64,000 nt of DNA from the NCBI GenBank assembly GCA_000004985.1, contig GG738922.1. The stretch is one strand, 5' to 3'. The stretch's first letter is position 1, and each line of letters opens with the position of its first letter. The position numbers and the translations under genes were made by a program. Below the pieces are notes generated by a model, which ran no database searches, was not told where the DNA came from, and worked only from the letters and a program-made list of their open reading frames with translations. Shown here in pieces: positions 472 through 56,272 of this stretch. This DNA is from Naegleria gruberi (taxonomy: Eukaryota).

Positions 472-1428
472 ATGTCTGAACTGTTGCATCGAACCCTTTC
501 GCACGATGCCCTGATCGACATTCTCATTTTTTGCCACGACGATTTAAAATCAGTGATGAATTTGGCATCAACTTGTACAACACTTTATGCTGCAATTACA
601 GAATGCTCTGAACGGTTGTGGATTTACATTTTGAATAAGAAGTTCATGGGTAGTAGAAGGGAGAAGAAGGGATCCAACAAGAGGAAGAATAGAAAGCCAT
701 TGGTAAAAGAAAAGACACTTTCGATATTGGAAAATAGTACTGGACTTTCGGATAGAAGTAAACAAATAATTTCCATAATAAGAACACAAGTAAGATTTGA
801 AAGGAAACATCAAATTTTGAAAGGATATTATGAGGAAAGAGATTTTGCTAAATACAAATACTTTTCAAATTTGAATATTAAGGATGATTATATTTGGAAA
901 TTGCTTAAAAGGGAAATGGTAGAATCTAAGGCAATTTACTCACCAGAAAATATAATTAAGGAGAAATTTGGAAATTCACCAATTCAACTGATTTATTTAT
1001 ACTTTAACGGTAGCATGTACACTGTGAAAGAATTCATAGATGCCATATTTAGGAAAGAAAATGCTCATCTTGAATTAAATATTCATAACAGAACCATTTC
1101 TTCATATCTTTACGATTATTGGAAAGAAAACCGCAAGTCAAAACTGGATTTCAACCAGGAGCTATCCAACTTTATACGTTACACACGTATTTGTCAAGAC
1201 ACCAACGATTCTTTATTATTTATCAAATTAATCTATTTAGAATTTCCAAATGTAATGAATGGTTCAAATCAAGAAACAGCATACGAACAAGAGAAACACA
1301 CTAAAGGAAGTTTCAAAAACACATTACTCTACTTTAAAAATTATCTTGCCAATGTGCAAGAGGCAGTGAATATTTTCGCAAAGGAGCTCTATGGAAACAA
1401 TATTGATTTAAAAGTTTACAATCGATAA
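472..1428 (+). CDS. F-box-like domain protein, hypothetical
   Basis: ATG preceded by an A9 run. N-terminal LSHDALIDILIFCHDDLKSVMNLASTCTTLYAAI matches the F-box pattern (L-x-x-E/D-I-L-x-x-I-f... C-k-x-w). 318-aa uninterrupted ORF. Confidence 0.6.
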   Translation: MSELLHRTLSHDALIDILIFCHDDLKSVMNLASTCTTLYAAITECSERLWIYILNKKFMGSRREKKGSNKRKNRKPLVKEKTLSILENSTGLSDRSKQIISIIRTQVRFERKHQILKGYYEERDFAKYKYFSNLNIKDDYIWKLLKREMVESKAIYSPENIIKEKFGNSPIQLIYLYFNGSMYTVKEFIDAIFRKENAHLELNIHNRTISSYLYDYWKENRKSKLDFNQELSNFIRYTRICQDTNDSLLFIKLIYLEFPNVMNGSNQETAYEQEKHTKGSFKNTLLYFKNYLANVQEAVNIFAKELYGNNIDLKVYNR

Positions 1429-1495
1429 ATTTGTTCTAAATTAATTGGACAGAGTAACAGAGATATTGTTGTTTTATTCCTTTGAATAATACCAA

Positions 1496-2341
1496 TTAAT
1501 CAGCTTCTTCTTTTTCTCCATCCTCACCTCCTTCTTCTTCATCATCATCTCCTCCAAGTCTCAGCTCAATTGAGACACCAACAGCATGATACAAATAGGA
1601 AGCAATAAATCCAATCAAACAAGTGATGAGCATACTTCTCATAATTGTTGGATAATAATATCTAAAGAATGAAATCTTTCCATCCAAATTTCTTTCAAGA
1701 TCATCAATAAAATCCAATGTTACACTATCAATTTCACGCAACTTATCGTGAATATCCATAGCCAAATATTCCTTTGACTCTTTCAAATTTTGTAAATGAT
1801 AACCTTGAGCATCAAGTCTATATCTCAATGAATCAATAATTTCATTTGTTTTGGCATATCTGAATTCATTCTTGAGATGAGAGACCACCATTTCAACATG
1901 GAGAATATCACAACCCAAGTTTTCTAATTTAGCTTCCATGGAATCAACTTGATATTGCAAACGATTAGCCTTTTGATTAAATTGCATCTCCATGCGATCA
2001 AATTCCTTCAATTCAAACTCTAATTCATCAATTTCTTTCTTTAAATACAATTGAGAATGATCATATGAATACATGCTTTTAAGATTGTTCAATCGGGAGG
2101 TTAAGTCTTCTCTATATTGTTGATAAATCCAGAAATATCTGTGGAAGTGTAATCTATTAACATTGTTAGAATCTACAATGGATGATTTTGTTATTAATGA
2201 TACATGGAAATTTGATTGTTGTTGTTGTTGATGACGATTATTTAAAAATCTATTTTTTATGATGATATTATTGTTTGATGATGATCTAGAACTTGCCTTC
2301 ATGAGGGAAGACAAGATTTGCTTGGCGCCAAATCTTTTCAT
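1496..2341 (-). CDS. coiled-coil membrane protein with C-terminal TM helix and acidic tail, hypothetical (possibly organellar)
   Basis: 281-aa ORF from an ATG. Basic S-rich N-terminus, long heptad-like region, a hydrophobic helix (MLITCLIGFIASYLYHAVGV) about 30 aa from the C-terminus, then a D/E-rich tail. No confident family assignment. Confidence 0.5.
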   Translation of the reverse strand: MKRFGAKQILSSLMKASSRSSSNNNIIIKNRFLNNRHQQQQQSNFHVSLITKSSIVDSNNVNRLHFHRYFWIYQQYREDLTSRLNNLKSMYSYDHSQLYLKKEIDELEFELKEFDRMEMQFNQKANRLQYQVDSMEAKLENLGCDILHVEMVVSHLKNEFRYAKTNEIIDSLRYRLDAQGYHLQNLKESKEYLAMDIHDKLREIDSVTLDFIDDLERNLDGKISFFRYYYPTIMRSMLITCLIGFIASYLYHAVGVSIELRLGGDDDEEEGGEDGEKEEAD

Positions 2342-2457
2342 TTTTTGTATTTTTAATAACTTTTGATTTTTAACAACAGTTCATCATTATGAAGAGATTG
2401 ATACATTTCGAATAACAAGTTATCTCGATTAATAATTAAATAGGTTTTTATAATAAT

Positions 2458-5393: not shown

Positions 5394-5456
5394 TTTTTTG
5401 TAATAAACACTAAAACATTATTAAATATTGAAATATTTGAAAATAAAAAAGCAATT

Positions 5457-6975
5457 TTATTGTTTCGTAGGAGTTTGTTGAGGAGTTTTTGAAGAGTATC
5501 TTTGTAAAAGTTGATGGAAGAAATGTTCTGCATTCTCAACCTGATCTGATGTTGTTGAGCCTGGTGTGGAAGGTTTTAAAATGATATTTTCTGACGAATC
5601 ACTTCTAAAGAATTCTGGAGTGGCAGGTGTTAAGGCAGGAATTCCAGAAGATCTTGGACTCAGGTCATATTTTCCTCTAGGCGTTTGATTTCCTTTGCTT
5701 GTTCCTCGGTTGTAAGCTCTGAATGGAGAAGACATTGATGATGGTGAAAGTAATGGTGTGATATCAATGTCTGTTGGTCTTTGCATCATGTTTCTCACTT
5801 TCTGTTGCTTTTTGAGAAACACTTCAAAATCCTCGAATGGATCTGAAAATTCAATACTTTTTTCAGACGATGACGATAAATCGAAATCGCTAATTAAGGT
5901 GTCAAAATCTACTCCTTCAGGATCGTTCGTAACTGTTGAGCAATCTATTGACTTTACTTTAGCTACAGTGTCACATCCACTTGGAATAACAATACAAGAA
6001 TGCTCTCTTGATTCCATACATTCTGCAAATTCAAAAGGTGTATTGTAACAAATATTCATAATATATTTCTTCAATAGTAAGCAATTAATATTAGACGAGG
6101 AAGATGTATAAAATAGTGAAGCTCCATCTTGATGATTGAGAAGAATATTAATTTTGTGACAATCAAACAATCTACTTACATCTGTAACATAATTTTCTCA
6201 ATTTAAAAAGTATGAAATTAAGGAAGTGGTGTGGAATGATATTGATAATGGATTTTTTGGTACAGAATGAATCAGCAATTTTCTCTGCCATATCTGATTT
6301 TGTAATTGCAAGCACAATTGGTATTCCAAGATTAGTATCAATAACCGTAAATTCATTTGGATTTTCAGATGTGGATTGCTCTCCCTTCTTGAATGTTGAT
6401 TTTACTCTATCATAACATCTTTGCATTCCTTCTTCCTTCAATTCGGGAATGATTTTTTCATCGATATGATCCTGAAGTATCCTTATCCACTTTTTAGTTC
6501 TCGAAATTATATTCTTTGTGTTTGATATATCTACAGTAATAACTACAACAGTCTTTTCAAATGTGGTAGGATTAATTGCAAAATCCAGCAAGTATGAAAA
6601 GTACTGATTTTCCATTTGATAAATATTAAGATATTTGTCTCTATCATTTCTTGTAGAGTCTGAGAAATCATCATGTTTTGTAGAATCAATTGCTTTAAAG
6701 TATGTATACTCAATAGAAAGGGTATCATGATAAACATCTCCAGCAATTTCCTTTCCCTGAAATCTTCTAACAAGACTCCTTTGACCATTCTTTGCATCTC
6801 CCAAAAACACAATACTATAACTATCCTCAATCCCTTCCTGCAGTTTCGGATCTATTTTCTGTTGTTTCAATAAACTACCCCAGACATTATTTCGTTCCTT
6901 TTGATGATTAGTTGGAGTGCTTGGAGTTGTTTTTAAGGAATTATTGAAGGTTGTTGTTTGTTGAATACTCGTCAT
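5457..6975 (-). CDS. cytoplasmic dynein light intermediate chain (DLIC); 2 exons (6180..6975, 5457..6127), intron 6128..6179
   Basis: Track ORFs 6172..6975 and 5457..6170 are one gene. Exon 1 has the DLIC P-loop-like IVFLGDAKNGQRSLVRRFQG and LGIPIVLAITKSDMAEK (compare LGIPVLVVCTKCDA). A 52-nt GTAAGT..caag intron joins ..KLRKLCYR to YGASLFYTSSSSNINCLLLKKYIMN..VIPSGCD, matching DLIC CLQYGAALIYTS..LLYKYIVH..FIPAGWD. The C-terminus is an S/P-rich disordered tail. Confidence 0.8.
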
Positions 6976-8156: not shown

Positions 8157-8747
8157 TTATTCCTCTTCTTGATCAAATTCTTCTTCTTCATCGAAGGCTT
8201 CCATGATAACTTCATCAGCAAGATTATCAAAAATTTCACTGGATGAATCACTTGCAGAATAAAAAGATGGACAAAGGCTTTCAAAGTAAAGAATATTCTT
8301 GGACTAAACGCTATTAGAAATTAAACTATTTTGAAAAACAAACCTTGTGGGCAAGACAAATTTGTTGTCTCTTGACACAAACACTTCTGGACAATTGATT
8401 TACATGCTAATGATAACGGCATGTTTAATTTCGAATAATTCATAAAATAAACTTACTCTATTAGAATCAGAAACACATTTTGGAATCTTCTTGAGACAAG
8501 TATATTCAATATGAGCAGCCAAACATTCCTTTGAAACATTTTCAGGTGAGGCAGCAAAAGCAGCAATTTCCTTGCAGACACTTCCTTCTAAATCCTTGAT
8601 GTAATCAACATTGACTTTAAAATCAATATTTGGACAACAAGAGAATGAATGAGCAACACATGCATTAGTAGGGGTATAAATTGCTGTTACTTGAGTAACA
8701 ACAAATAACAAAACAACAAGGCAACCTGCCAAAAACAAATTCTTCAT
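8157..8747 (-). CDS. small secreted cysteine-rich protein with acidic C-terminal tail; 2 exons (8457..8747, 8157..8303)
   Basis: Signal peptide MKNLFLAGCLVVLLFVVTQVTA, then 8 Cys in about 75 aa. A GTAAGT donor follows ..SDSNR. A 153-nt intron to gcgtttag|TCC gives a 48-codon acidic tail (..EVIMEAFDEEEEFDQEEE*). The alternative 3-exon model was rejected. Confidence 0.5.
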
Positions 8748-8960
8748 ATTTTTTTGATGTTTGAAAGCGATACTTCCATTGTGTACAGTTTAAGTAGCTG
8801 ATATAGAATGTTTCATGGTTGGGTTTGTTCATTCGAGTTAGGTCATGATGTGTATGGGTAAATCGGGATTGTTCTTTGATTTTACAATGAAAAATAATAA
8901 TTTTCCTATTTTTCTTCAATTTACAAGAAATTTAAAGATTTTTTTAAATTTAAAGAAAAA

Positions 8961-10109
8961 ATGTCGATAAGTGGGGATGGGAAAAGAATACGGATGGATG
9001 AATTGGCTCCATCATTGAAGAAGATGAAAACAAATGCATCAAAAGCTATAGCTTCTCAATTGTGTCATGATGAAATATTAAATATTTTACAATTTTTAAA
9101 TGTTAAACAAATTGTGAAATGTTTATTAATCAATACGAATTGGAATATTATAGGATCATCAAATATTATATGGAAACCATTATATAATCACTTTTTCATG
9201 AATGAATTTTTCAAGTGGGATCAACAATTGCAAGATATTTCCAAACTCGAAAGTAATACTTTCCTTCCCGAACTTAAATTGCATTCTCACAGGAAGAAAG
9301 AAGATTCAGATATTAAGGATTTGAAAAAAGAAACCAATAATTTATTGGAAAAATTCAAGGATAAGAATGGAAATGTTAATTATTATCAATTATTTCAATT
9401 TGATTGTCATTATCCTCAAATTAATGAATCAAATGTTGATATTGTTGATCAGTTGAGGAATGTTGATTCCATTTCTAATATTGAAACTTTGAAACAATTA
9501 ATCAAGCATATTTGGAAAGATAAAGATAAGTCTGAATGGTACAGAATTATTGGAACATCTGAAATGATTCTTGACAAGTCGAACAAATTGTGGAAAAGAA
9601 AGCCAATTCTCACCTTTATAGCCATTACCTTATTAGTATTATTCAATAAGAAGAGAATTAATTATGTAGACGGAATTATTGTGCTGACCAATGTAAAAAA
9701 CAGTTATACACAAGAGCAAATTTGCGAAATGCCAATTTTGGCTTTTTGTAAAATGATTTCCTCAAACGAGGAAAATATTTCCAAATTATGCTCCAAACAC
9801 AATTATAAGAAAATGACTTTGGGTGCATTTCTAAAAGTTTCTGATAAACAAACAGGTAAGATTTCTTCCAGACATCCACCCAAGCCAGATATAAATCTAA
9901 CAAATCTCAAACTCTGTTTCAGATCAAAGAATGACGAAACATTTATTGCAGTACAATCAGTTTCTGATAACATGAATCCTGATGTGTTAGAGTTTGCTCC
10001 CTCGTTTTTTAATGCTGGAGGAAGTTTACAATGTGTTCAAGAGGTGAAAGCTGTTTTGGTTGAGAATGGAATCAGGTTTGAAATTAAGAATGGAGCTAAA
10101 TATTGTTAA
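8961..10109 (+). CDS. F-box-like domain protein, hypothetical
   Basis: ATG with A-rich leader. LCHDEILNILQFLNVKQIVKCLLINTNWNII is F-box-like. 382-aa continuous ORF. Confidence 0.6.
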   Translation: MSISGDGKRIRMDELAPSLKKMKTNASKAIASQLCHDEILNILQFLNVKQIVKCLLINTNWNIIGSSNIIWKPLYNHFFMNEFFKWDQQLQDISKLESNTFLPELKLHSHRKKEDSDIKDLKKETNNLLEKFKDKNGNVNYYQLFQFDCHYPQINESNVDIVDQLRNVDSISNIETLKQLIKHIWKDKDKSEWYRIIGTSEMILDKSNKLWKRKPILTFIAITLLVLFNKKRINYVDGIIVLTNVKNSYTQEQICEMPILAFCKMISSNEENISKLCSKHNYKKMTLGAFLKVSDKQTGKISSRHPPKPDINLTNLKLCFRSKNDETFIAVQSVSDNMNPDVLEFAPSFFNAGGSLQCVQEVKAVLVENGIRFEIKNGAKYC

Positions 10110-17624: not shown

Positions 17625-17661
17625 AATAATATTCAAAAATTGTAAAACAAACATAAACATC

Positions 17662-33780: not shown

Positions 33781-36708
33781 TTATTCACAATGCATTTCTT
33801 CCAATTCAATTTTAATATGAGGTGCATAGCCTATTATCTTTTGCTTTTCCATACTCATTCTTTGGTGATACAATTGCTGAGTATCATTTTGATCTCTTTG
33901 TTGGTGGAACAGGCAGCAACATTCCACAACAATTGTACGAATACTAGTTAGGGAAGATACTATTTCTTTCATATAATTGGCATTGAGTTCATAAGCAATC
34001 TTTAAGAATCTTAATTTTTTGAATACTTTCAAATGTTCCAATTGTTTTTCTGTTAATTGCTGTCTTTCTAACTTGAGAATTTCCAAACTGTTTGCTCTAA
34101 CCCTAATAGCTTTTGTAATTTCCTCTAAATAATTATTAACTGTTGATCTGCTTGTTGTCAAACATCTCGATCTACAATAAGCTCTCCTATCTATTGAACC
34201 AATGACTAAAACTCTGAGTTTTTCTAATGGGCGTAGTGCTTGCTCTAACAAGGAAGACAAATTCATGTATGTAAAATCTTGATAATAGATGAACAGTTTT
34301 GTCAAATTTTCTGATGGGAATTTGATCATTACATTGAACATTGAGAGGCTTAATGTTAAGCTTTTGAGGTTTGATAATTTTGGTAGAATGTACATTTGAT
34401 CTTCTCCTAACATTTGACTGTGAAGAGATAGTTGGGAAATTTTGCTTGGTTGTGCTGAAATTCCAGAAACAAATGGTATGACATTCTTCATTGTAGAAGT
34501 GAATCCTGAAATGGAAAGCTTCTCAAGGTGAGGGAAGAACAGGGCGCTTCCAAGGAATGATAAATCAATATCATTAGAAGGCGATCCAATATCAAGATTT
34601 GAAAGAAGTACTGTGAGATCAATATCAATTTCCTTGGACATGTGTAATTTTCTCAAGAACATTTCCATTTCATCAAAAGAACACGTATTCGCCTCCACAT
34701 TACGAATTGCCATATCTGATTGTTCTTTTGATACTCCATGAGGAAGGTCCTTGTTAGTAAATATATCACCGTTAATTATTGAGAATCTGTGCAATTCTAA
34801 TAGTGAATTTCCATTTAACCTTAAAACTTTTAAACGACTTGGCATATCGCACTTAATCCAATAATTCAAAGTTCTATTCGTTAAAATTGGATTAGTAAGA
34901 TCCAGATGGGTCAAATTTTTCAAATTTCCAATAATCTCCAATGCATGTATTTCATTCGACTCGTCATGATTAATAACTGTTGAACCATTAACCACATGAG
35001 TCTGGTGATGCGTCAACGAGCAAGCAATCTTTAAACTCTCCAAATTTGGACAACATGTCACTACAAGCTTCATGTTCTCTACAGAAACTGTTGAGACAAC
35101 AAATGCGAGATGTTTCAAATGCGATGGCATCCAGCATCCTTTGTAAAGTTCTTTCTTACTACACTCTTTAAGCAGTGGAATTAAATCGTCATCAAATTGA
35201 GCAAGGAATGTAAATTCCAAGCTCTCAAGATTTTTACAAGCTGCCAAATATTGAACCAATTCTCTTCTCGACTTTTCAACATTTGTACAGTTGGTAATGA
35301 GGTATCTGGTAATACTCTTAGCTTTTAGAGACTTTAAATGTGCGAGTGATTTTGTCTGTTTTAAAAGTTCAAAGAATGCTTGATCTAGATGACAATCTAT
35401 ATCAATCTTTTCCAGCTTGATATCATTCTCCAAAAGCTCCCTCAAGCAAACTTCCTTAATGTCCTCATAGGTAATCAATTCTGAGTTCAGTTTTGAGATT
35501 ATCAACTCGTTCAAATTTGGTAATTTGATTAAATTATGAATAGTTAATCTTTTAAGCTCTTCTCTATCCAAAAGATCATGTTTCACAACAAAAGATGTCT
35601 TGTATAATCTTTCATAGGCAAACGAATATGTACAAAATAAATTACAAGTTGGTCTAATATTCCACAGAACTTCATATTCCTCCAAAAAGGACAAGATGTT
35701 TGTCCACACTTTTAAATTATTCAAAAAACCATCTTTCAAACCTTGCTCCAACTCAAATACACTACTATCATACGTTTGATTAGAAACATGATGTGATTGT
35801 GAATGATTCTTCATAGCTTCCATATCATACGGAACAGAAATTGATTGTTTTACCATGAGTGTGAGCACTGATGTTGTTGGAGAGTTTCTACAATTAATAT
35901 TGGTTGGACAGGATTGAAACATCTTGTAGGGTTGTTTGTTTCTAGTAGTGAGGGGGAAGGCTTTTCGTTGCTTGGAATTGGACTTATCCATAAAATCAGG
36001 AGATGATTCTTCTTGGATCGTTTCTTCATCATTTAAATTACCAATACTTGTTGTAGTACACTTGTTGTTTTGCGGATGATTGGGTATTGCTTTGGTGAAT
36101 TTTAGATTTGTATTCTGTTGTGGTATTTGTTGTTGTTGATGCTTGTTTGTTTCTGATGATAGACAACTATTCTTGTAGGCTTTTGGAGGTTTTGTACAAA
36201 GTAAATCCTTTGAATCTTGTCTTTGGAGAGCAAATCTACCAAATCCCATCGTTCCATTCATTCTATTAGCAACACCTTCTCTCATTGGAGGAAGACAACC
36301 AGGGGAAGATGAATCCTCTTGACTATTTACACTACTAATTCCACTGTATGATGAATCCTCTGCATACTCTTCATTAATATGATGTTCGGAGGAAGAAGAG
36401 GAATGAGGTTCCAATGTTCTACGTAAAAAGGTAGTTGTTGTTTGCTGATTTTGGACATTAAATTTGTTATTATTCGTATCATTGTTGGCTTCACAATTAT
36501 TATTATCGGGTGAGGAAACATAACTACTATCATCATCTGTTGTTGATCCGTGATGATTCACCATAGAGTCGGTACTCTTGAAAGGTGGTTTAATGTTCTT
36601 TTGTTGTTGGTGCTGGGAAGTTATGTCATCATGTTGCTCTTGTTTTTTGTGGGTGAATGATGCTTCCGAAGGGAACTTTTTATTATTTGAAGTGGGCAAT
36701 TGGTTCAT
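33781..36708 (-). CDS. large (975 aa) F-box-like/leucine-rich-repeat protein with Q/N/S-rich N-terminal half
   Basis: ATG at 36708. Low-complexity N-terminal 300 aa. NILSFLEEYEVLWNIRPTCNLFCTYSFA is F-box-like. The C-terminal half has repeated L..L..L..C..L..L LRR segments (LKHLAFVVSTVSVENMKLVVTCCPNLESLKIACS..). Confidence 0.6.
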   Translation of the reverse strand: MNQLPTSNNKKFPSEASFTHKKQEQHDDITSQHQQQKNIKPPFKSTDSMVNHHGSTTDDDSSYVSSPDNNNCEANNDTNNNKFNVQNQQTTTTFLRRTLEPHSSSSSEHHINEEYAEDSSYSGISSVNSQEDSSSPGCLPPMREGVANRMNGTMGFGRFALQRQDSKDLLCTKPPKAYKNSCLSSETNKHQQQQIPQQNTNLKFTKAIPNHPQNNKCTTTSIGNLNDEETIQEESSPDFMDKSNSKQRKAFPLTTRNKQPYKMFQSCPTNINCRNSPTTSVLTLMVKQSISVPYDMEAMKNHSQSHHVSNQTYDSSVFELEQGLKDGFLNNLKVWTNILSFLEEYEVLWNIRPTCNLFCTYSFAYERLYKTSFVVKHDLLDREELKRLTIHNLIKLPNLNELIISKLNSELITYEDIKEVCLRELLENDIKLEKIDIDCHLDQAFFELLKQTKSLAHLKSLKAKSITRYLITNCTNVEKSRRELVQYLAACKNLESLEFTFLAQFDDDLIPLLKECSKKELYKGCWMPSHLKHLAFVVSTVSVENMKLVVTCCPNLESLKIACSLTHHQTHVVNGSTVINHDESNEIHALEIIGNLKNLTHLDLTNPILTNRTLNYWIKCDMPSRLKVLRLNGNSLLELHRFSIINGDIFTNKDLPHGVSKEQSDMAIRNVEANTCSFDEMEMFLRKLHMSKEIDIDLTVLLSNLDIGSPSNDIDLSFLGSALFFPHLEKLSISGFTSTMKNVIPFVSGISAQPSKISQLSLHSQMLGEDQMYILPKLSNLKSLTLSLSMFNVMIKFPSENLTKLFIYYQDFTYMNLSSLLEQALRPLEKLRVLVIGSIDRRAYCRSRCLTTSRSTVNNYLEEITKAIRVRANSLEILKLERQQLTEKQLEHLKVFKKLRFLKIAYELNANYMKEIVSSLTSIRTIVVECCCLFHQQRDQNDTQQLYHQRMSMEKQKIIGYAPHIKIELEEMHCE

Positions 36709-40512: not shown

Positions 40513-40712
40513 TTTGAATATAAACTCAATAAATTGTCTCATTGGTTTCAATTAATTTATTTTCTGCAATGTTTCTATTATTCTTATTATCGTTCAGAAT
40601 TGAAACAATTATGACAGTACTTAGAGATTTGAACAACCTTTGAGACCTTACCGTTGCACTGTAAATTTTGGCGCCCAATGTTCTACTGATTAAATTTTCA
40701 AATTTAAAAAAA

Positions 40713-42975
40713 ATGCCGAACATTAATAACAATGCCACTTCTGCACTACCCCGTAGAAGGCATCAACAGAATGAAAAATTGATGGAAAAGAAGAGTGAGG
40801 AAAAGTATAAGGATGCTAAAACAAAGTTAACAAAAAAGTTGTTTAAGGAAGCCGCCGAGGATTTGACGGAAGCCATTAATTTTAGACCTCTTCCAAAGTT
40901 TCATTTTCTCAGAGGAAATTGTTATAGACACACTCAGGATTATGACAGAGCAATATTGGATTACACTATTGCTATTGATACACAAGAGGAAGCAGCCTTT
41001 TATTTGGCAAGAGGAAAATGTTTTAGAACAATTGGAAAAATCAACAAATCAATAGCTGACTTTGATAGAGGTATTGATATTCTTTCTAGACCTTCAGCTC
41101 TTCAACCAACAGTCAATGTATCATCACTAAACAACTCGAGAGTGGTGGTGGACACTGCATCATCAACAAATCTCGGATCTGAAAATCAATCAATCCTGTT
41201 TCAACTCTATGTAGATAGAGGTTTAAGTTATTATGAAAAAGGAGAAAAGAAATTAGCTATTGAAAATTATGGAAAAGCTATCCTAATGAATGTTACAAAA
41301 CAGCAAAGTTTGTTTAAGGCATACTTCCACAGAGGTAATACTCTCAGAGAATGTGGAGAGCTCGATGCCTCCATCGAAGATCTCACTAAGGCCGCAGACT
41401 TAGATCCTAAAAATGCAGCAGTTCACAACAATTTAGGTTTAAGTTTCTTTGAAAAGAGAAACTTTCCAGGAGCAGAAAAGCGTTTTACTCTTTCTATTGA
41501 AAACGATCCAACAAAGGGAATGTAAGTGTTTTATTTTTGGGTTCAAAAGTACTAATTCAATGAATAGATATCACAACAATCGAGGTCTTGCATACTACAA
41601 GCTGAAAGCATTTGAAAAGGCAATAGAAGACTTTTCTTGTGCTCTCAATCTCGATCCAGATGATGGTAATATTTACTTCAACAGAGGTAACACATTGTTG
41701 GCAATGAAGAGGTATGAAGAAGCCTTACAAGATTTTAACCTTGCTATCAATAAGGTTGATACCGATGAAAACTATTTCCATTGTAAAGGTATTGCTTATC
41801 AGGAAATGAATGATATTCCTCAAGCCATTCAAATGTTCAAAAAAGCTCTTGAAATTAATGAAAAGAGTGTTCAAAGCTTGTACCATCTTGGTTTAATGTA
41901 CCATATTAATAATCAACTGTTTGAAGCCAAAAAACAATTTACCAAGGCGCTAGAACTAGTTCATGACCATAGAATTTACGAGAGCAGAGGTTTAGTTTAC
42001 ATGGATCTGCTGTATTACGAGTTGGCAATTCAAGATTTTTCAGCCGCAATAAGAATTGTTCCCGATTCTCCAAATAATTTCTTCCACAGAGGTAAATGCT
42101 TCCTGTGGTTGGAAAGATATACTGAAGCTGTTGAGGATTTTAATACAGCATTCAAACAACACTGTGACGACCCACAAGTGTTTAATGCAAGAGCTATGGC
42201 TTATAAGCATTTGAAAAAGCATGATGAAGCTATTTCTGATTTATCCTCTGCAATTAAGTCTGATGAGAACAATGTTGAATATTACTTTAACAGATCTCAA
42301 TGTTTTTTCGATTTGAAGAATTATAGACAAGCTTTGAAAGACTTGGATACAAGTTTAGAAATTGAAAAATCAGAACCAAAGCTATACTATCTCAGAGGGT
42401 TGACTTATTATGAAATGAAGAATTATAAGATGGCTATCAAGGATTTCAAAGGTGCTCTAAGGTTGAAGAATCCTCAAACTGGCGCGCTGATTTCTTCATT
42501 TGTTCAAGGTGAGCCAACCTTTGGTCATGATTGTTTCTATCACATGGGATTGTGTTATTGTTTCCTTGAGAAGTATGAATACGCTGTAGAATCATTTTCA
42601 AAAGCTGTCGACCTCATATCAGATAAGGAGAATGTTCATACCAAAGAGTCGTCTGCTGCTTTAATAATCGATGATAACATGTTACATGCAGTTTATCACC
42701 ACGAAAGAGCCAAAGCATACCAAATAATAGGAATGAACGAAAGAGCATTGGAGGATTTCACAACAGTTATCAAATATCAACCAGACAATGCACATGCATA
42801 CTTTAGGCGAGCTTTTGCATGGAAAGCTCTTGAGAGATTTGAGGAGGCTGCTGAAGATTTTGAGAAGGCAAAATCTCTGCAACCCAATAACCCTAATTTA
42901 GTAGTCAACTACAAGAAGATATACGATATTGCATTTGTAGAGCTATGTAAACCAGGTTCAGAGCACCTTTATTAA
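40713..42975 (+). CDS. tetratricopeptide-repeat (TPR) protein; 2 exons (40713..41521, 41568..42975), intron 41522..41567
   Basis: True ATG is at 40713 (A8 leader); the track start at 40668 is TTG. At least 12 34-aa TPR units (e.g. AYFHRGNTLRECGELDASIEDLTKAADLDPKNA, AHAYFRRAFAWKALERFEEAAEDFEKAKSLQPNN). Exon 1 ends ..DPTKG-AT|GTAAGT. A 46-nt intron (branch-like TACTAAT) with tgaatag acceptor continues the frame of track ORF 41449..42975. Confidence 0.75.
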
Positions 42976-43162: not shown

Positions 43163-44350
43163 TTAATTATATAAACTCAACTGGTTTTGTCTCGAAACAC
43201 ATAGCGATTCTAATTTGTCTGCCAAAAGTACATTACTAGTAGAGCTAAATCTGAATCTAATAAGTTTGGAGCTGTTCTCTATCAATGAAGAAACATCGTA
43301 CATGCTTTCTATACATAAAACAGTCAGTTCTTCCAAGTAAGGTGAGCTCAAACCAGTGAAATCAATAACACAGTTTGGATCTTTGATAAACTCTCCCTTT
43401 CTTGTTGGTGGTGTATAAACAGCATTGGTGAACTGACATGTGGATATGTATAATGATTTCAGATTAGGGAAATGACCCAAAAATCTGTTCATAGTCTCGT
43501 TATCAATATTTTTAACACAGCTTAATTGAAGTGTGTGAACATTTCTATAACTATCAATAAATCTTGGATTTGCAGAAAAGGCATCCTTATCATCATTCGT
43601 TACAATAATCTTACCATATTGTGGAAATCTTTCCAAAAATTTATGCTCCAAACATCTATTATTAATTAATTTCAAGCTCGTTAGTGGAGACAGGTCACCT
43701 CTCACATCAAAATGTTGATTTAAAATATACAGTTGAGGAATTTGAACTATAGTAAGTTTTGGAAATGTGGCAAGAATAGGTTCCCAATACCATGAAAAAG
43801 CATGTTTTGGTGGAAAGATTATTTTTGGCTTTTCTTGAGTTTGTTGTTTTGGTTTTTTGTGGTCTTCTGGGAAGTAACTATCATCTAATTCGCCATCACC
43901 ATCCTCATCAATCACCATTGGAACAAAGAAAAAGTGAGTTAAATTATCTTGTAAATCCTTATATATCTTTCTATTAGTTCCTCGCATTAAATATATTACA
44001 CTTCTAATATCCAAAAATTGACAAATAGATGAAGCAATTAATTCTGTTGGTAGAGTAAATAATTGATCAGTTTTAGTATTTGATCTATTGTTCTTTGATA
44101 CTTTATAGGCAGAATCTACCAGTTTATCCCTCCATAAATTTTCATTTGGCCATTTGATTCTTTCATTGATGGCTTGTATTGGTTTTTGCTCGTCTGATGA
44201 CATTTTAGTTTGAGTTGTTAACTCCTTTCTGCCACCACTATTCTTTGTGCTACCTCTATGTTTCTTACTTGTTGTTTGTGGTTCATAGTCATCGTCTAAC
44301 ATTCCCAAATGATGTTCATCATTCTCACAAGTTGTTGATGATTGTCCCAT
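43163..44350 (-). CDS. F-box-like domain protein, hypothetical
   Basis: ATG at 44350. LFTLPTELIASSICQFLDIRSVIYLMRGTNRKIY is F-box-like. 395-aa continuous ORF. Confidence 0.55.
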   Translation of the reverse strand: MGQSSTTCENDEHHLGMLDDDYEPQTTSKKHRGSTKNSGGRKELTTQTKMSSDEQKPIQAINERIKWPNENLWRDKLVDSAYKVSKNNRSNTKTDQLFTLPTELIASSICQFLDIRSVIYLMRGTNRKIYKDLQDNLTHFFFVPMVIDEDGDGELDDSYFPEDHKKPKQQTQEKPKIIFPPKHAFSWYWEPILATFPKLTIVQIPQLYILNQHFDVRGDLSPLTSLKLINNRCLEHKFLERFPQYGKIIVTNDDKDAFSANPRFIDSYRNVHTLQLSCVKNIDNETMNRFLGHFPNLKSLYISTCQFTNAVYTPPTRKGEFIKDPNCVIDFTGLSSPYLEELTVLCIESMYDVSSLIENSSKLIRFRFSSTSNVLLADKLESLCVSRQNQLSLYN

Positions 44351-45801: not shown

Positions 45802-45831
45802 CTCGAGATTCAAAAAGACACAAACGTTTAT

Positions 45832-48094: not shown

Positions 48095-51004
48095 TCAAAC
48101 AGTTGGTTGCACTTTTACATGTAATGAGGTAGTTTTTCTAAGGACACAACAACATATGCAAGCGCCTAAACACAGAACAGACAACAAGCAAAATGCAACA
48201 AATCCAATAGTGAGGAGTACTCCAATAGTTACGATGGAAATACTGCTGTTTGTCTTGTCTAAGAGCATACAAACTGAGGAATCCTCAAGTTTCATACTCT
48301 TTGATCTGGTGAGAACAAGACCATACTTTTGAGTCTGTGTTGTTGCTTCAGCAGTTACTTTTACCATTATAATGGAAGAAGAGTCGAATCCTGTAATTGT
48401 AACTCTCTCAACATTATTTTGGCTGTCTTTTTCTGTTAAACCATTTGCAAACACTCTCTTACTCATTTTCCCATCTTCAAATACAGTTACAATCATATCC
48501 AAATCTGAGTATAGAGTAGGAACACTATTTGCTTGATTTGGAGCATCGTACCATGCAATAGTTGCTTTCAGGAATGAGTTTGCATCCCTTGAGTTTGTGG
48601 AATAGCAATGCACATTTACACCTCCTCCTGTAATCTCTTGACGATCAAAAAGATCCAATATGAATGTTGAATCGTCGAACTCTAGAATATTTGACAACCC
48701 TATTGCCCCAAAACCTTCGTACTTATTGGGGGTGTCTTTGTTTCCAAGAGCAACAACAAAACTATCACTTCCATCCAAACTTACAGCTCCATTCAAAGAT
48801 GTGCAGCTATTTATAAGAGCTGCTTTAATTAATGGACCAGAAGGATTTGCAAGACCTTTCAACTTTCGCATGTATTCTCTAATTAAGGCTATTGACCCAG
48901 AAACCTAATTGAACGTAAAGTTAGAATTGAATCAATAGAAGACTTACTATTGGTGTTGACATGGATGTTCCAGTAGATACCTTTAGAGCAGCATCATTTG
49001 TGGCATTGGGATATATGTTTCCACACTGATTTGTTGACAAGCTACCGTCGGATCTAGTCGAAACAACTCGATCTCCAACAGCAACACCTTTTTGGGTTAA
49101 TTGATAAATTTCAATAAACTTACAATCTGGTTTCATTCTATTACCAGTTGCCGGGCCTCTAGCAGAAAAGAAAGCAACATTATTCTGATTATAGGAGGTT
49201 TTCAACACTTTCAATTGAGATTCCATTCTCGAAGGACAACAAGAGAAAGAGCAAGAATAATCGGAACAACAAGTATCTGATGTGACACCACAAATCTCTG
49301 ACTCTTCATCGAGGTTAAGGTACTGAATAGAATCTACAAATCCTTGATTGCTTGTCATTGAAGCTCCCACAACAATAGCATTCTTTGAAGTAGTGGCAAT
49401 CGTTCCATCAACAGCAATATTACCCTCGTTTCCAGCAGCAAATACTACCACTGCATCTTGATTCTCATATAAAAAATCATCAATTTGCATGTCTCTCTTT
49501 CCATAGCTATTGCACAATCTGCAACAATCCAATCCGTAGGCAGATTTACATTTTTCATTAGCAACTAATGAGAATTTCTTTCCCAATGAATCATCATCTA
49601 TGAGCAGATAGCACTGACAATCATAAGAGCACGAGAATAATGAAGCATAGGAGCAGGTGTAACTATTGGAGAATATCCGTGAATTAAGATTGTATCCTTG
49701 TAAGAACATTGTTCTAATATCGGATGGTACCAAAAGATCAGATTCGTTTTCATTCTCAATATCTAACATGATAATCTTCGATTTGTAAGCTATACCATTA
49801 TATTCACTCATTGTATTGTTATCTTCCGATTCAAGATTTCCTGCCACAGATCCACACACATGACTAGAATATTAAGAATAAAGCACCAGAAAAAAACTTA
49901 CGTCCCATGTCCATCCAAAGAATCCTTTCCATCCGCTTGTTTACCATTATTACTCATGTTTATGTAGGCTAAAACTTTTCTATGGTCCTTATTAACTTGA
50001 CCTGTTGTAACTGGAAGAGAAGGATCCGAAAAAAAGCAACTATCCCAATCTAGGCCGGTATCTGCCACCGTTATGACTTCTCCCTCTCCTGTGATATTTC
50101 TTTCCCATATTGGATTGGAATTGGTATTTAGCTCACCATCTGTACGAAGACCTTGTGCATGTTTTGTTGCTACTTTGTTAGATGTTCTCATTGGTTCTCT
50201 TCTCTGTATCCACTTTACACTTGGGTTGTCCAAAAGAAATTCGGCTATTCTATCCAAAAACTTAAAAGGGACTTGAATATCTATCATACCATCACCAACA
50301 ATTTCAATTTGATAATTATCTGAATGATATTTCATAAAGGCATTAAAATTAGTTTGAAATCTCTCTGTAACTTTCAGAAGTGAATTGATATCCGTAAGGG
50401 AAGGAATCAGAAGAAGTTCAAGTGCTATTCTACTATCCCTTGTACTGTTTTTAGCTTGTTCATAAATATAAAACATATCAATACTAGTTTTCAGCTCGTT
50501 TTCGAATGATCGTATCCACACAATTTCATTCTCCATCTCTTTGAGCATGTATTGATCTGCTCTAATAAGGTAAATGTTTCCGCTCTTCAATAAATAGGTT
50601 TTTTCAAAATTGTAATGGGTTGTCAGGGTCGAATTTCTGTTCATTCTCTCAACTAATTTGACAATAAATAATTGATCCGTCGTTATTGATCGTTTCATGT
50701 TCAAAATTTCACTTTTCATGTTGTCTTTGTGTGATATTACAACTGTTTTCCTTTTAAATTCAATCAAGTCCACTTGATTGAATGAATCATCTCTAAATAT
50801 TCGATAAGCCTTCTCCATCATCACATCATTCAACACAAATCCATGTTCAAACTTTATCAAGAACACAATCTCAATCATCAATCCGATGATTATCAAACCC
50901 AACACTGCAACAAATAATCTGCTCCACCACGATGAAAATAGCGAGTATATTTTCTTCATATGAGTTGTTCTTTCAATGTTATTATTATTATTATTATTAA
51001 TCAT
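48095..51004 (-). CDS. membrane-anchored subtilisin-like serine protease (peptidase S8); 3 exons (49902..51004, 48948..49863, 48095..48904)
   Basis: ATG at 51004, then an N7 run and N-terminal hydrophobic anchor. Asp-site VITVADTGLDWDSCFF. Exon 1 ends ..DGHG-AC|GTAAGT. A 38-nt intron gives T-HVCGSVAG (His site HGTHVxG). Exon 2 ends at the Ser site GTSMSTPI|GTAAGT. A 43-nt intron gives VSGSIALIREYMRK... The C-terminal TM is IVTIGVLLTIGFVAFCLLSVLCLGACICCCV. Track ORFs 49898..51004, 48921..49859 and 48095..48871 are the three exons. Confidence 0.8.
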
Positions 51005-53218: not shown

Positions 53219-53500
53219 ATAATAAACCTTGTAAAATAATAATCACCATCATACCACACCAATCAAATACTAATATCTGAATTTATTTCTAATAAAACTT
53301 TGTTCCTTCTTTTCCTCAATAGAACGTTGTTCCACTTCAATTACTTCTTCCATTAGCCTTCTAAAATAAAGCCACTTATCAACCATCGCACAGTAATCAT
53401 TAAAAAAAACTCACGACGCAATTTTTCTCAAGTCAAGTTGCTTGATGAAGTAAAAACAAGAAGAAAAGATAGAGATCATCATACAACAATAACAATCATT

Positions 53501-54521
53501 ATGGAACAACAATCAACCTCTGCTACACCTGGCAAACGTCAAGATTATGTACAATATACTCCTCAAATTGTAACTAATTATAATCAACAATATGGCCAAC
53601 AGCAAGAACAAGGTTTGGCATCACCATCACAAGAACACTATGAAGACTCGATGCTTGAATTGAAAGATGTCGATACACTTCCATCAAATTATGCCTTTGT
53701 CTCTCATCAAATTCCTCCTAATACTATGTACAACAATCAACAACCACCACAGCAAGTACCACAACAAGTCATCTATTTGCCTGCTGAAACTCAACAACGA
53801 GTCTATGAAACACCTTCTAACAATAATTATATTCACTCTGGAATGATTATGAATCCTAACGTTGTTCCTAACCATCATTTATCTCCATCATCATCAGCAG
53901 AACCTTCTTCCTTTATTATCAGCAAGTATACATCTTGGACAAGAGTTGTTATGGTATTTGCTATCCTCTTGGGTATCTATGGGTGTTTTGGTTTGGTATC
54001 ACAGTTGATATTGGTTTTCTCTTATTCAACCTTCTCTAGTGTTGAAGGTATTTCTGTGAACACATCTGTTATATCAATTATTGCTTCCTGTGTTAATTCA
54101 TTGATTGAAATTGGTGCTGGATCTGTTGGTGTTTGGTCAACTATTACAAAGAATCCAAAGCATAGAAAGAATACCACTATTGCTCATTTGGTTCTTCTTT
54201 CGTAAGTATTTGAATGATATTGATTTGTTAACCTTTGAAAGAATCGTTGTTCTTTACAATATCATCTATGGTATTATTGGTACTCTTGAAATGTTTTTCG
54301 GTGAGCAAACACAGGAAATTGCCAGTGCTGGACTTAACCCACAAAATTTAATAATTTTCTTAGTTTTTTCACTTTTATTATTTGTTTTAATGATTTTTGC
54401 TTGTTGTGGAAGTTGTATTGGATGTCAAGCTTATCGTTTCAGAATTATGTCAAAATTACAAGATGCTCAACCAGAAATAGCTCAAGGAGAAGGATTTATG
54501 GTCATGCGTGATGAAGTTTAA
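53501..54521 (+). CDS. four-TM integral membrane protein with Q/P-rich N-terminal region; 2 exons (53501..54201, 54242..54521)
   Basis: True ATG is at 53501 (MEQQSTS..); the track start at 53438 is non-ATG. TM helices VVMVFAILLGIYGCFGLV, ISVNTSVISIIASCVNSLIEIGAG, IVVLYNIIYGIIGTL and LIIFLVFSLLLFVLMIFACCGSCIGC. Exon 1 ends ..LLLS at TC|GTAAGT. A 40-nt intron to tttgaaag|A continues the frame of track ORF 54105..54521. Confidence 0.6.
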
Positions 54522-54526
54522 ATAAA

Positions 54527-56272
54527 TTACTGAATTAGTGAGGATAATCTTAATTTCATTTTGAGAGCCTCTTCCTTTGATTTTTGAGTCATTGGATTGG
54601 TCTGTAAATTTAAATGTTTAAGACTTGGAAAATTGGAACTAAGCGTTTCAATTAAAACACTAACCCTGGTAATGGCATTCATACCACAATTCAAGGTGGA
54701 AAGGAGAGGAAATTTTTGTTGTGAAAAACAAGCAAATTCTTCTGTTCCAATATCATTGTTTGACAAATCTAACAATCCCAATTTTGGTAATGCATTAAAC
54801 GAAACTCCTTTCAAATATTTTCCTATTTGATTGGATCTCAATAGGAGAAATGTTAAACCTTTGAGTGTTGTATTATTAAGGTAAGTGATTCCTTCTCCAA
54901 TTTGATTAAAGTTCATTATTAAAATGTGCAATTTTGTAGTATTTCCTAAGAATAAAGCCTTTGCTCCTTCTGCTCCAACGTTGTTACTACTAATATTAAG
55001 TGTTTTCAATTTAAGAAGAGATCCACTAGAAATATATTCCATTGATTGGTATGTTAATTCGTTACCAGCAACACTAAGGTTAGTTAAATTGGAAAGTTTG
55101 GTAGTTATGGTTTTTACATTTGTATCACACAACTTATTATTAGCCACATCTAGAGAGGTTAATTGAGTTCTTGTGGAAATTAGCTCAATACTCTCTGTTG
55201 TAAGATTTGAGAGAGCTACGTGCAACGTTTTGAGATTATTATTCAACACCAGAGAAATGAGGTCATTAGTCAAGATATTTCTTGCAGAGAAATGAGTCAC
55301 CTTGCTAATCGGTAGAGTTGAAGAAAGTATTGTATGACCATGGTTCGAGTTTTTTTCAATGTTAATAGATTCAATATTGTCCATAAATAGTAGGGACAAA
55401 ATTCCAAGAGTTTCAAGAGAATTGTGTGCTATATTCAATACTTTCAAATGGGCATTCATAGACTTGGCAATCATATCGGCACCTTCATTTGTAACTTGAT
55501 TTATGCGAATATCAAGTGAAGAGAGTTTGAAATTGGCTAATTTACACAAACATTCAATGGCTCCATCATTCAGGTTTGAATTATCTACTCTTAGTTTTGT
55601 CAAATTTTCCAACTTTCCCTTGCATATATTCTCCATAGCAGCAACTGACACATCAATATCAGATAGATTAAGACTGGTTAGAGAGCTCAATAGTGCAACA
55701 TTTTTACAACCCTCCACAGAAATATTATTTCCACCCAAATTCAAATGAGCTAATTTTCCACAAGTCGTAGCAGCAAAGCACATTGTTCCTTCATCATTAA
55801 TCTTTACATTGGTACACTCCAATCTTTCCAATTCCACCAAATTCCCACTCATCAAATATTCCAATCCTTCATTCCCAATCGAATTGTGACTCACATTAAG
55901 AATCCTCAAAAACCTCAATTCCTTCGCCAAGTAATAACAAGCTCCCGAATCAATTCTATTACTACTAATATTCAATTCTTTCAAATTGACTAATCCTGCA
56001 GACAATAACTCTATACTCTTCCTACCAATTTTATTTCCTTCCAAATCCAAACGATGAATATTAGAAGCATACTCTGTACAAGCCTTCATAATCTTTGTGC
56101 CCATGTAATCATCAAGATCCATCCGAGGACTCACCAAGTCAATATCTAATTCTGTTTGATTAATGATGGATTGCCAATATTTGCAAACTAGTAGACAATT
56201 TGACAATACTTGGATGGACGGAAGGTATTGGAAAATGTGGTGCTTGAATATTTCATCGGGTAATTGTTGCAT
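54527..56272 (-). CDS. F-box/LRR protein with ribonuclease-inhibitor-like leucine-rich repeats
   Basis: ATG at 56272 (A9 leader). LPDEIFKHHIFQYLPSIQVLSNCLLVCKYWQSIIN is a clear F-box. About 18 LRRs of the 24-28-aa L..L.L..N.I...G RI-like type follow (LNLGGNNISVEGCKNVA, LDVANNKLCDTNVKTI, LSVAGNELTYQSMEYI). Confidence 0.7.
   Translation of the reverse strand: MQQLPDEIFKHHIFQYLPSIQVLSNCLLVCKYWQSIINQTELDIDLVSPRMDLDDYMGTKIMKACTEYASNIHRLDLEGNKIGRKSIELLSAGLVNLKELNISSNRIDSGACYYLAKELRFLRILNVSHNSIGNEGLEYLMSGNLVELERLECTNVKINDEGTMCFAATTCGKLAHLNLGGNNISVEGCKNVALLSSLTSLNLSDIDVSVAAMENICKGKLENLTKLRVDNSNLNDGAIECLCKLANFKLSSLDIRINQVTNEGADMIAKSMNAHLKVLNIAHNSLETLGILSLLFMDNIESINIEKNSNHGHTILSSTLPISKVTHFSARNILTNDLISLVLNNNLKTLHVALSNLTTESIELISTRTQLTSLDVANNKLCDTNVKTITTKLSNLTNLSVAGNELTYQSMEYISSGSLLKLKTLNISSNNVGAEGAKALFLGNTTKLHILIMNFNQIGEGITYLNNTTLKGLTFLLLRSNQIGKYLKGVSFNALPKLGLLDLSNNDIGTEEFACFSQQKFPLLSTLNCGMNAITRVSVLIETLSSNFPSLKHLNLQTNPMTQKSKEEALKMKLRLSSLIQ

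What the first reader, a model, noticed from the sequence alone, without database searches (positions are those of the whole stretch)
472..56272. Unusual density of F-box-like genes: seven in 64 kb, several with LRR/RNI-like repeats
F-box-like N-termini are seen in genes at 472, 8961, 24488, 29221, 33781, 43163 and 54527, on both strands and interspersed with housekeeping genes. Most have divergent, low-complexity or LRR C-terminal regions. This looks like a lineage-specific expansion of SCF substrate adaptors scattered through the genome, of the kind seen in plants, nematodes and some amoebae. It is unusual for typical fungi, despite the fungal-looking Zn2Cys6 factor here.
Basis: seen in the sequence. 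Interest (0 to 1): 0.5.

Follow-up and report, generated by a model that had tools for sequence, protein, structure and literature searches.

The report
Scattered F-box genes in Naegleria gruberi
This stretch of the amoeba Naegleria gruberi's genome carries four genuine and up to three doubtful genes for F-box proteins (adaptors that pick targets for protein degradation); they are unrelated to each other, and a large F-box family is already known for this organism, so the finding is ordinary.

Summary
The window is Naegleria gruberi NEG-M nuclear DNA, not fungal. All seven ORFs exist at the stated coordinates. Support for an F-box is graded:

- **Confirmed:** 54527 (F-box plus RNI/GALA-type LRR) and 8961 pass Pfam's curated thresholds.
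- **Family level:** 472 is an F-box through its family; a paralogue passes Pfam, and hhalign gives P=2e-4.
- **Already published:** 24488 is the VLRF-1/Vms1-like hydrolase. Its N-terminal F-box in Naegleria is already described (PMC6514570).
- **Probable:** 29221 matches only the first helix.
- **Unproven:** 43163 and 33781 are conserved LRR proteins with no significant F-box signal.

The seven share no detectable similarity, so they are not recent duplicates. Three have orthologues in other Naegleria species or in Willaertia. One has paralogues on other scaffolds. F-box diversification in N. gruberi was reported in 2015 (PMC4327156). I could not test whether this window is denser than the genome average, because no N. 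gruberi census was possible with these tools. Verdict: a real but ordinary sample of a known, diverse SCF-adaptor repertoire. Low interest.

The parts
54527..56272 (-). c7: F-box/LRR protein, 581 aa. The F-box is aa 4-42 (window 56147-56263), followed by about 20 RNI/GALA-type 24-residue LRRs.
   Evidence: Pfam F-box-like 33.3 bits (GA 24.3), F-box 22.6 bits, LRR_6 7.7e-28. Top hit of the independent F-box HMM, 23.3 bits. Best solved-structure sequence match is a GALA protein, E 9.9e-18.
8961..10109 (+). c2: F-box protein, 382 aa. The F-box is aa 34-75 (window 9060-9185). The C-terminal region is uncharacterised.
   Evidence: Pfam F-box 20.8 bits against GA 20.5, E 3.4e-4. Independent HMM gives 19.9-21.9 bits, with 0/1178 decoys reaching that score.
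472..1428 (+). c1 (NAEGRDRAFT_75192): divergent F-box at aa 9-54 (window 496-633), plus a roughly 250-aa Naegleria-specific C-terminal domain.
   Evidence: The N-terminal segment hits F-box-like (E 0.044) and F-box (E 0.072) as the top two Pfam families. Paralogues P0064, P0065 and P0066 begin with a canonical LPDEII/LPSETI motif, and P0066 passes the Pfam F-box GA (21.9 bits). hhalign of the family against 10 verified F-boxes gives P=2.3e-4 over model positions 1-43. Identity of the gene.
24488..25999 (-). c3: VLRF-1 (Vms1-like peptidyl-tRNA hydrolase) protein. Its N-terminal F-box (aa 61-127 from the ATG at 25954; window 25574-25774) is split by a poly-lysine insert.
   Evidence: Pfam bVLRF1 2.7e-27 and F-box-like E 0.21. 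Orthologues occur in N. lovaniensis, N. fowleri, Willaertia and Acrasis. The motif is conserved, and is contiguous in Willaertia. Leave-one-out HMM gives 11.9 bits, 0/1178 decoys. hhalign P=4e-4 to 2e-3. An F-box on Naegleria VLRF-1 is stated in PMC6514570.
29221..30645 (+). c4: probable F-box/LRR protein, 474 aa. The F-box-like motif is aa 24-58 (window 29290-29394). Only the first helix (FPTEIILYILSF) matches, and the LRRs are irregular.
   Evidence: HMM scores of 6.7-9.6 bits cover model positions 3-18 only, with 0/1178 decoys. However, a real non-F-box protein reached 7.0 bits. No Pfam F-box hit. Weak LRR hits at E 2e-4 to 0.09. No homologues retrieved.
43163..44350 (-). c6 (NAEGRDRAFT_75211): conserved LRR protein with an MGQSSTTC N-terminus. 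A possible degenerate F-box lies at aa 100-140 (window 43931-44053).
33781..36708 (-). c5 (NAEGRDRAFT_53963): 975-aa protein with a low-complexity N-terminus, a conserved helical motif at aa 329-369 (window 35602-35724) and an irregular LRR-like C-terminal part. F-box status is unproven.
   Evidence: Orthologue in N. lovaniensis at 49-55% identity, with the motif conserved. HMM score -1.6 bits, with 148/1178 decoys at or above it. hhalign P=0.78 (aligned elsewhere) and P=0.047 (in register). No Pfam F-box hit. Weak hit to PF24758, the LRR of an F-box protein, E 0.008.

Best explanation
The window is ordinary gene-dense nuclear DNA of Naegleria gruberi. Among roughly 37 genes it contains four genuine F-box proteins with unrelated C-terminal parts:
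- c7: RNI/GALA-type LRR.
- c2: uncharacterised C-terminus.
- c1: a Naegleria-specific domain family.
- c3: the VLRF-1/Vms1-like peptidyl-tRNA hydrolase.

It also contains one probable F-box/LRR protein (c4) and two conserved LRR proteins (c6, c5) whose F-box-like motif is too degenerate to call.

These genes are independent, dispersed members of the ancient F-box superfamily. They are not products of local or recent duplication.

By inference from the family, the F-box docks on Skp1 and so on Cul1-Rbx1. The C-terminal domain (LRR, the novel domain, or VLRF-1) selects the substrate or brings a second activity. This makes each protein a substrate receptor of an SCF ubiquitin ligase.

Shown here: domain identity, orthology and paralogy, and lack of mutual similarity. 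Inferred only: Skp1 binding and ligase function.
For: Organism: a 99% ENA hit and 46-59% hits to N. lovaniensis, N. fowleri and Willaertia. Three window proteins are 99-100% identical to N. gruberi NEG-M accessions on one 209,908-bp scaffold.

F-box calls:
- Pfam thresholds passed by c2 and c7.
- In the independent HMM scan, the four top-ranked of 227 ORFs are c7, c2, c3 and c4.
- Leave-one-out scores against 1,178 decoys.
- c1 family evidence.
- c3 orthologue conservation, plus the published statement that Naegleria VLRF-1 carries an F-box.

Not duplicates: all-vs-all BLASTP and BLASTN find nothing significant.

Old genes: orthologues of c3, c5 and c6 exist in other heteroloboseans. Synteny with N. 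lovaniensis is partial.

Known background: F-box and BTB diversification in N. gruberi (PMC4327156 supplement).
Against: - c4, c5 and c6 fail every curated test, and c1 and c3 fail Pfam thresholds as single sequences.
- My reference HMM is small (10-17 sequences). A true non-F-box protein (DLIC) reached 7.0 bits, so scores below about 8 bits carry little weight.
- The AF2 model of c6 is low-confidence in the motif region.
- No interaction with Skp1 was or could be tested.
- The genome-wide F-box density in N. gruberi is unknown to me, so real local enrichment cannot be excluded.
Confidence: 0.7

Rival explanations
1. Over-reading by eye. Only the two Pfam-passing genes (c2, c7) are F-box proteins. 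The other five merely have amphipathic leucine-rich helices that resemble the degenerate F-box consensus.
For: Pfam finds no F-box in c4, c5 or c6, even at E<=10. c5 scores below 148 of 1,178 decoys. A non-F-box protein scored 7.0 bits. hhalign gives P=0.25 and 0.78 for the c6 and c5 families against the canonical reference.
Against: The c1 family has members with canonical LPDEII F-boxes, and one passes the Pfam GA. hhalign gives P=2.3e-4 for c1 and 4e-4 for c3. The F-box of Naegleria VLRF-1 was independently reported. In c4, c5 and c6 the best-scoring position always coincides with the motif that precedes an LRR region.
Confidence: 0.15
2. A genuine local hotspot. This scaffold region is enriched in fast-evolving, lineage-specific F-box genes, a gene-birth or turnover zone as in plant and nematode F-box clusters.
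For: There are 3-5 supported F-box genes in 64 kb. About 75 kb of flanking sequence sampled from N. lovaniensis, N. fowleri and Willaertia contains the VLRF-1 orthologue plus 1 clear extra F-box gene. c1 and c2 have no tblastn match in the syntenic N. lovaniensis block, and gene order there is rearranged. Under assumed genome totals of 100-200 F-box genes, three or more per window would be rare (illustrative only).
Against: The genes are not similar to each other, unlike tandem F-box clusters of plants and nematodes. c3, c5 and c6 are conserved across genera. The comparison sample is tiny. The window was picked post hoc. The genome total is not known, and divergent members escape Pfam, so the true rate is probably higher than any Pfam count.
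Confidence: 0.1
3. Some of these F-box/LRR genes were acquired horizontally from giant viruses or amoeba-associated bacteria, which carry many F-box and LRR genes.
For: c7's nearest named relatives are bacterial: a hypothetical protein of Francisella sp. W12-1067 (29% identity) and GALA/LegL-type LRR effectors in the PDB. A Willaertia paper reports F-box and LRR genes whose best matches are Mimiviridae genes (PMC6892926).
Against: Identities are only 24-29% and confined to the repeats. Scans of IMG/VR with c7 and c2 found no relative. The direction of such transfers is usually host to bacterium. GC content is uniform across the window.
Confidence: 0.05

Closest known systems
FBXL-type F-box/LRR substrate receptors (Skp2, FBXL2, FBXL17, yeast Grr1, plant COI1 and D3/MAX2) and their bacterial mimics, the GALA effectors
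   Same: c7 has an N-terminal F-box directly followed by a long array of 24-residue RNI/CC-type LRRs. Its best solved-structure sequence matches are GALA proteins. The modelled LRR of c6 superposes on COI1, FBXL2 and FBXL17 among many LRR proteins.
   Different: No orthology to any named FBXL; identity is at most 29% and repeat-driven. c4, c5 and c6 have irregular LRRs and no statistically supported F-box. The c6 family carries a conserved MGQSS N-terminus, which suggests lipid anchoring.
Eukaryotic VLRF-1 / Vms1 / ANKZF1 peptidyl-tRNA hydrolases of ribosome quality control
   Same: c3 has the VLRF1 catalytic domain (Pfam 2.7e-27), with the core nearly invariant across Naegleria and Willaertia.
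   Different: It has an N-terminal F-box where the animal, fungal and plant proteins have a Rei1-type zinc finger. No ankyrin hit appears in the Pfam scan. This architecture was already described for Naegleria and some ciliates (PMC6514570). In Naegleria species the F-box is interrupted by a poly-Lys insert that is absent in Willaertia.
Lineage-specific F-box expansions of plants and nematodes (FBA/FBD/Kelch families, C. elegans FBXA/FBXB)
   Same: Many F-box genes with divergent, fast-evolving C-termini. The c1 family has at least 3 paralogues in N. gruberi.
   Different: Plant and nematode expansions are largely tandem arrays of recognisably similar paralogues. The seven genes here share no detectable similarity and are separated by housekeeping genes.

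Membership tests
F-box superfamily (Pfam PF00646 / PF12937) | A motif of about 40-50 residues scoring above the curated HMM threshold | tested here: inconclusive
   Met by c2 (20.8 vs 20.5 bits) and c7 (33.3 vs 24.3 bits). Sub-threshold for c1 (14.0 and 13.5 bits) and c3 (11.8 bits). No hit for c4, c5 or c6, or for their orthologues.
F-box superfamily (Pfam PF00646 / PF12937) | Homology to bona fide F-boxes at family (profile) level | tested here: inconclusive
   c1 family: paralogue P0066 passes the GA and hhalign gives P=2.3e-4 over the whole motif. c3 family: P=4e-4 to 2e-3 over the C-terminal half, plus literature. c6 family: P=0.015-0.25. c5 family: P=0.047-0.78. Reversed-sequence controls: 0.2-0.7. 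So met for c1 and c3, and not met for c5 and c6.
F-box superfamily (Pfam PF00646 / PF12937) | Leu-Pro start and conserved hydrophobic core, including the V-C-K-x-W helix-3 signature | tested here: inconclusive
   Read from the sequences and an hmmalign. The (L/F)P start is present in c4, c6 and c7. It is replaced by LS, LC, LS and LN in c1, c2, c3 and c5. The Trp of helix 3 is present in c2, c3 and c7, and is replaced by L, F, F and I in c1, c4, c5 and c6.
F-box superfamily (Pfam PF00646 / PF12937) | Direct binding to Skp1 and assembly into an SCF (Cul1-Rbx1) ligase | not testable with these tools
   No complex prediction or experiment is available here. The only models (c6) have pLDDT below 50 in the motif region.
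FBXL (F-box + leucine-rich repeat) subfamily | An F-box immediately followed by an LRR solenoid | tested here: met
Eukaryotic VLRF-1 (Vms1-like) family, for c3 | VLRF1 release-factor-like catalytic domain | tested here: met
   PF18826 at 95.9 bits, E 2.7e-27. Also found in all orthologues.
Recent lineage-specific expansion (tandem or dispersed duplicates) | Detectable paralogy among the clustered genes | tested here: not met
   All-vs-all BLASTP gives a best E of 0.012 (LRR against LRR). BLASTN finds only short chance-level matches, the best being 38 nt at E 7e-5. Only c1 has paralogues, and they lie on other scaffolds.
Recent lineage-specific expansion (tandem or dispersed duplicates) | Local density above the genome-wide rate | not testable with these tools
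   N. gruberi contigs are not retrievable here, and no published count was found. Only an illustrative Poisson table under assumed totals could be made.

The most novel reading that the evidence does not exclude
Heteroloboseans may possess a sizeable class of F-box/LRR receptors whose F-box is so degenerate that Pfam misses it. Examples would be the c4, c5 and c6 types, including a putatively N-myristoylated, membrane-anchored family conserved from Naegleria to Willaertia. If so, the SCF adaptor repertoire of N. gruberi is substantially larger than domain censuses show.
Probability: 0.25. Interest if true: 0.35.

Novelty: already known. Interest (0 to 1): 0.15.

Why it matters
It matters little beyond annotation.

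- Several N. gruberi 'predicted proteins' can now be labelled: the c1 family as F-box proteins, c7 as an FBXL-like receptor, and c3 as the F-box-VLRF-1 protein.
- It shows that Pfam thresholds under-call F-boxes in this lineage.
- If the degenerate motifs of c4-c6 do bind Skp1, censuses of cullin-RING adaptors in early-branching eukaryotes would need lineage-tuned models.
- The F-box on the ribosome-quality-control hydrolase is biologically the most suggestive item, as a possible link between peptidyl-tRNA release and SCF ubiquitylation. It is already published.

Tried and rejected
- **Word-indexed protein search, concatenated query.** I joined c1, c2, c4, c5 and c6 into one query and got no hits. 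This was a false negative: a full HMMER scan later found orthologues or paralogues of c1, c5 and c6. I therefore do not claim that c2, c4 and c7 lack homologues.
- **Profile searches against PDB sequences.** The c6 and c5 families gave nothing relevant.
- **Horizontal transfer.** IMG/VR scans with c7 and c2 and a metagenome scan with c4 found no relatives.
- **Published F-box count for N. gruberi.** Five literature searches found none. The only statement found is qualitative.
- **Retrieving N. gruberi contigs.** Exact protein look-up failed.
- **afdb50 fold library.** Not available.
- **Fungal origin.** Considered and rejected.
Full report
**Origin of the window.** GC content is a uniform 30-36%. 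The window is packed with long ORFs separated by short gaps.

- The ORF at 24488-25999(-) has a 99% identical ENA protein. Its relatives are N. lovaniensis (57%), N. fowleri (55%), Willaertia magna (46%) and Acrasis kona.
- A full HMMER scan returned proteins 99-100% identical to three window ORFs. These are N. gruberi accessions XP_002669829, XP_002669830 and XP_002669780, all 'predicted protein', on one 209,908-bp scaffold.
- The window is therefore N. gruberi NEG-M nuclear DNA, a heterolobosean amoeboflagellate and not a fungus.
- The Zn2Cys6 motif that suggested a fungus is real: ORF 30738-30941(+), Pfam Zn_clus 32.4 bits.
- Neighbouring genes are ordinary: CCT-gamma, AP-5 sigma-like, dynein light intermediate chain, an L7Ae-family protein, Vps8, NUDIX, NARG2, NmrA, a TPR protein, scramblase, subtilase, NHL, a class-I amidotransferase and RCC1.

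**Testing the seven motifs: curated models.** Against Pfam, only 8961 (F-box 20.8 bits, threshold 20.5) and 54527 (F-box-like 33.3 bits, threshold 24.3, plus LRR_6 at 7.7e-28) pass. 24488 has a weak F-box-like hit (E 0.21) next to a strong VLRF1 domain (2.7e-27). Submitted as isolated segments, 472 gives F-box-like (E 0.044) and F-box (E 0.072) as its two best families. 29221, 33781 and 43163 give nothing at E<=10.

**Testing the seven motifs: independent HMM.** To see below the thresholds with controls, I wrote out ten classical F-boxes: Skp2, beta-TrCP, Fbw7, Cdc4, TIR1, cyclin F, FBXL3, Met30, Grr1 and FBXO2. All ten pass Pfam. I built an HMM from them and scanned all 227 six-frame ORFs of the window with filters off.

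- The top four were 54527 (23.3 bits), 8961 (19.9), 24488 (9.6) and 29221 (6.7). The best other ORF scored 5.3.
- No eighth candidate appeared.
- Leave-one-out models were scored against 1,178 shuffled or reversed decoys:

| Gene | Score (bits) | Decoys at or above |
|---|---|---|
| 54527 (c7) | 23.3 | 0 |
| 8961 (c2) | 21.9 | 0 |
| 24488 (c3) | 11.9 | 0 |
| 29221 (c4) | 8.8 | 0 |
| 472 (c1) | 4.0 | 1 |
| 43163 (c6) | 3.1 | 7 |
| 33781 (c5) | -1.6 | 148 |

- A caution: in an N. lovaniensis locus the same kind of model gave 7.0 bits to dynein light intermediate chain. Scores under about 8 bits are therefore not trustworthy.

**Family-level evidence for 472.** The full HMMER scan and cluster look-up supplied relatives. 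472 belongs to a Naegleria family with at least two further N. gruberi paralogues on other scaffolds (NAEGRDRAFT_62396 and _68389), plus environmental members.

- Three relatives begin with canonical LPDEII or LPSETI motifs.
- One relative passes the Pfam F-box threshold (21.9 bits), and two have F-box-like as their best hit.
- hhalign of the family against the ten verified F-boxes aligns residues 6-50 to model positions 1-43, with P=2.3e-4. Reversed controls give 0.2-0.7.
- I accept 472 as an F-box protein with a novel C-terminal domain of about 250 residues.

**Family-level evidence for 24488.** The motif is conserved in all orthologues. In Naegleria species it is split by a poly-lysine insert. 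In Willaertia it is contiguous. hhalign gives P=2e-3 to 4e-4. [quoted passage not shown] I accept it.

**29221.** Only the first helix (FPTEIILYILSF) matches. No homologues were retrieved. I rate it probable.

**43163.** It has orthologues in N. fowleri and Willaertia, with a strongly conserved block IC.FLDIRS..Y...TN..IY.

- No orthologue hits Pfam F-box.
- hhalign is non-significant against the canonical reference (P=0.25) and marginal (P=0.015, in register) against a reference extended with Naegleria F-boxes.
- The Willaertia orthologue scores 10-10.9 bits.
- Its AF2 model is confident only in the C-terminal LRR. That region matches LRR proteins in general, including COI1, FBXL2 and FBXL17.
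- Foldseek's top hit was the F-box/LRR protein D3, but with TM 0.23.
- I rate it possible.

**33781.** It has a 49-55% orthologue in N. lovaniensis with the motif conserved. Every statistical test is negative or marginal. It is unproven.

**Relationship among the seven.** All-vs-all BLASTP gives nothing better than E=0.012, an LRR-to-LRR match. BLASTN finds only short chance-level matches, the best being 38 nt at E 7e-5. They are not recent duplicates.

- Synteny with N. lovaniensis is partial. Vps8, L7Ae, DLIC, AP-5 sigma, CCT, VLRF-1 and NARG2 are conserved but rearranged.
- 472 and 8961 have no match in that 21.5-kb block.
- The 33781 orthologue lies nine gene numbers from VLRF-1 on the same N. 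lovaniensis contig.

**Density.** I could not obtain a genome-wide count for N. gruberi.

- About 75 kb sampled around orthologues in three other heteroloboseans contains the VLRF-1 orthologue and one clear extra F-box gene. That gene is a 344-aa Willaertia protein next to CCT, scoring 29.3 bits. The sample is too small to judge.
- Under assumed totals of 100-400 F-box genes in 41 Mb, two or more per 64-kb window would occur in 7-83 of about 640 windows. This is illustrative only.
- Grau-Bove et al. (2015) already list N. gruberi among the taxa with diversified F-box and BTB families (PMC4327156 supplement).

**Mechanism.** By inference from the family, the F-box docks on Skp1-Cul1-Rbx1 and the C-terminal module recruits substrates. 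None of this is shown here.

**Conclusion.** It is wrong about a fungal context, and recent expansion and unusual density are unsupported. The finding is ordinary and largely already known.

Noticed in passing
window 24488-25999 (-), motif 25574-25774: The F-box of the Naegleria VLRF-1/Vms1-like hydrolase is interrupted between helices 2 and 3 by a poly-lysine insert (KKKKKKKK). The insert is present in all Naegleria orthologues and absent in Willaertia. An F-box on a ribosome-quality-control peptidyl-tRNA hydrolase hints at coupling to SCF ubiquitylation. The architecture itself is already published.
   Followed up: partly
window 43163-44350 (-), first codons at 44327-44350: All five members of the c6 family, from Naegleria to Willaertia, start with MGQ..SS..C (MGQSSTTC in N. 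gruberi). This is a classical N-myristoylation motif followed by a Cys that could be palmitoylated, which suggests a membrane-anchored LRR protein.
   Followed up: no
window 30738-30941 (+), with ORFs 31034-32008 and 31992-32429: A Zn2Cys6 binuclear cluster (Pfam Zn_clus 32.4 bits; CVRCRRLHKKCNKKLPSCSKCISDGVECSVC) occurs in a heterolobosean, probably as the first exon of a gene continued by the two downstream ORFs. This 'fungal' domain is not fungus-specific.
   Followed up: partly
window 472-1428 (+); P0062, P0065 (other N. gruberi scaffolds): The c1 family combines an F-box with a novel C-terminal domain of about 250 aa. That domain has conserved YSPEN and NAH motifs and an E.P motif, and matches no Pfam family. 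There are at least three paralogues in N. gruberi.
   Followed up: partly
L004 1615-2649 (-) (Willaertia magna JBEGDK010000155.1): A 344-aa protein with a clear F-box (LRLCNDEMLLIFKFLSPFDLLKIKFVCRDWYKLI, 29.3 bits) and a hydrophobic, probably multi-pass C-terminus lies next to the CCT gene. Its F-box most resembles that of window gene 8961 (LCHDEILNILQFL). 8961 lies 5 kb from CCT-gamma, so the two may be positional orthologues.
   Followed up: partly
window 54527-56272 (-): The nearest named relatives of this F-box/LRR protein are bacterial: a hypothetical protein of Francisella sp. W12-1067 (29% identity) and GALA/LegL-type LRR effectors in the PDB (E 9.9e-18). This fits exchange or mimicry of eukaryotic F-box/LRR modules by intracellular bacteria.
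   Followed up: partly
window 5457-6975 (-), 40668-42975 (+), 48095-51004 (-): Three genes (dynein light intermediate chain, a TPR protein and a subtilase) are each split into two or three abutting ORFs in different frames. This fits very short introns or frame changes. The N. lovaniensis DLIC is annotated as one 530-aa product.
   Followed up: no
window 8400-10109, compared with L001 3295-4266: The interval between L7Ae and Vps8 holds different genes in the two species. N. gruberi has a small Cys-rich secreted-looking ORF (8400-8747) and the F-box gene 8961. N. lovaniensis has an unrelated 323-aa gene. This indicates local gene turnover inside an otherwise syntenic block.
   Followed up: partly
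tool behaviour: The word-indexed protein search returned nothing for a concatenated query. Its parts nevertheless have 46-55% identical relatives that the exhaustive HMMER scan found. Negative results from the indexed search should not be read as absence of homologues.
   Followed up: yes
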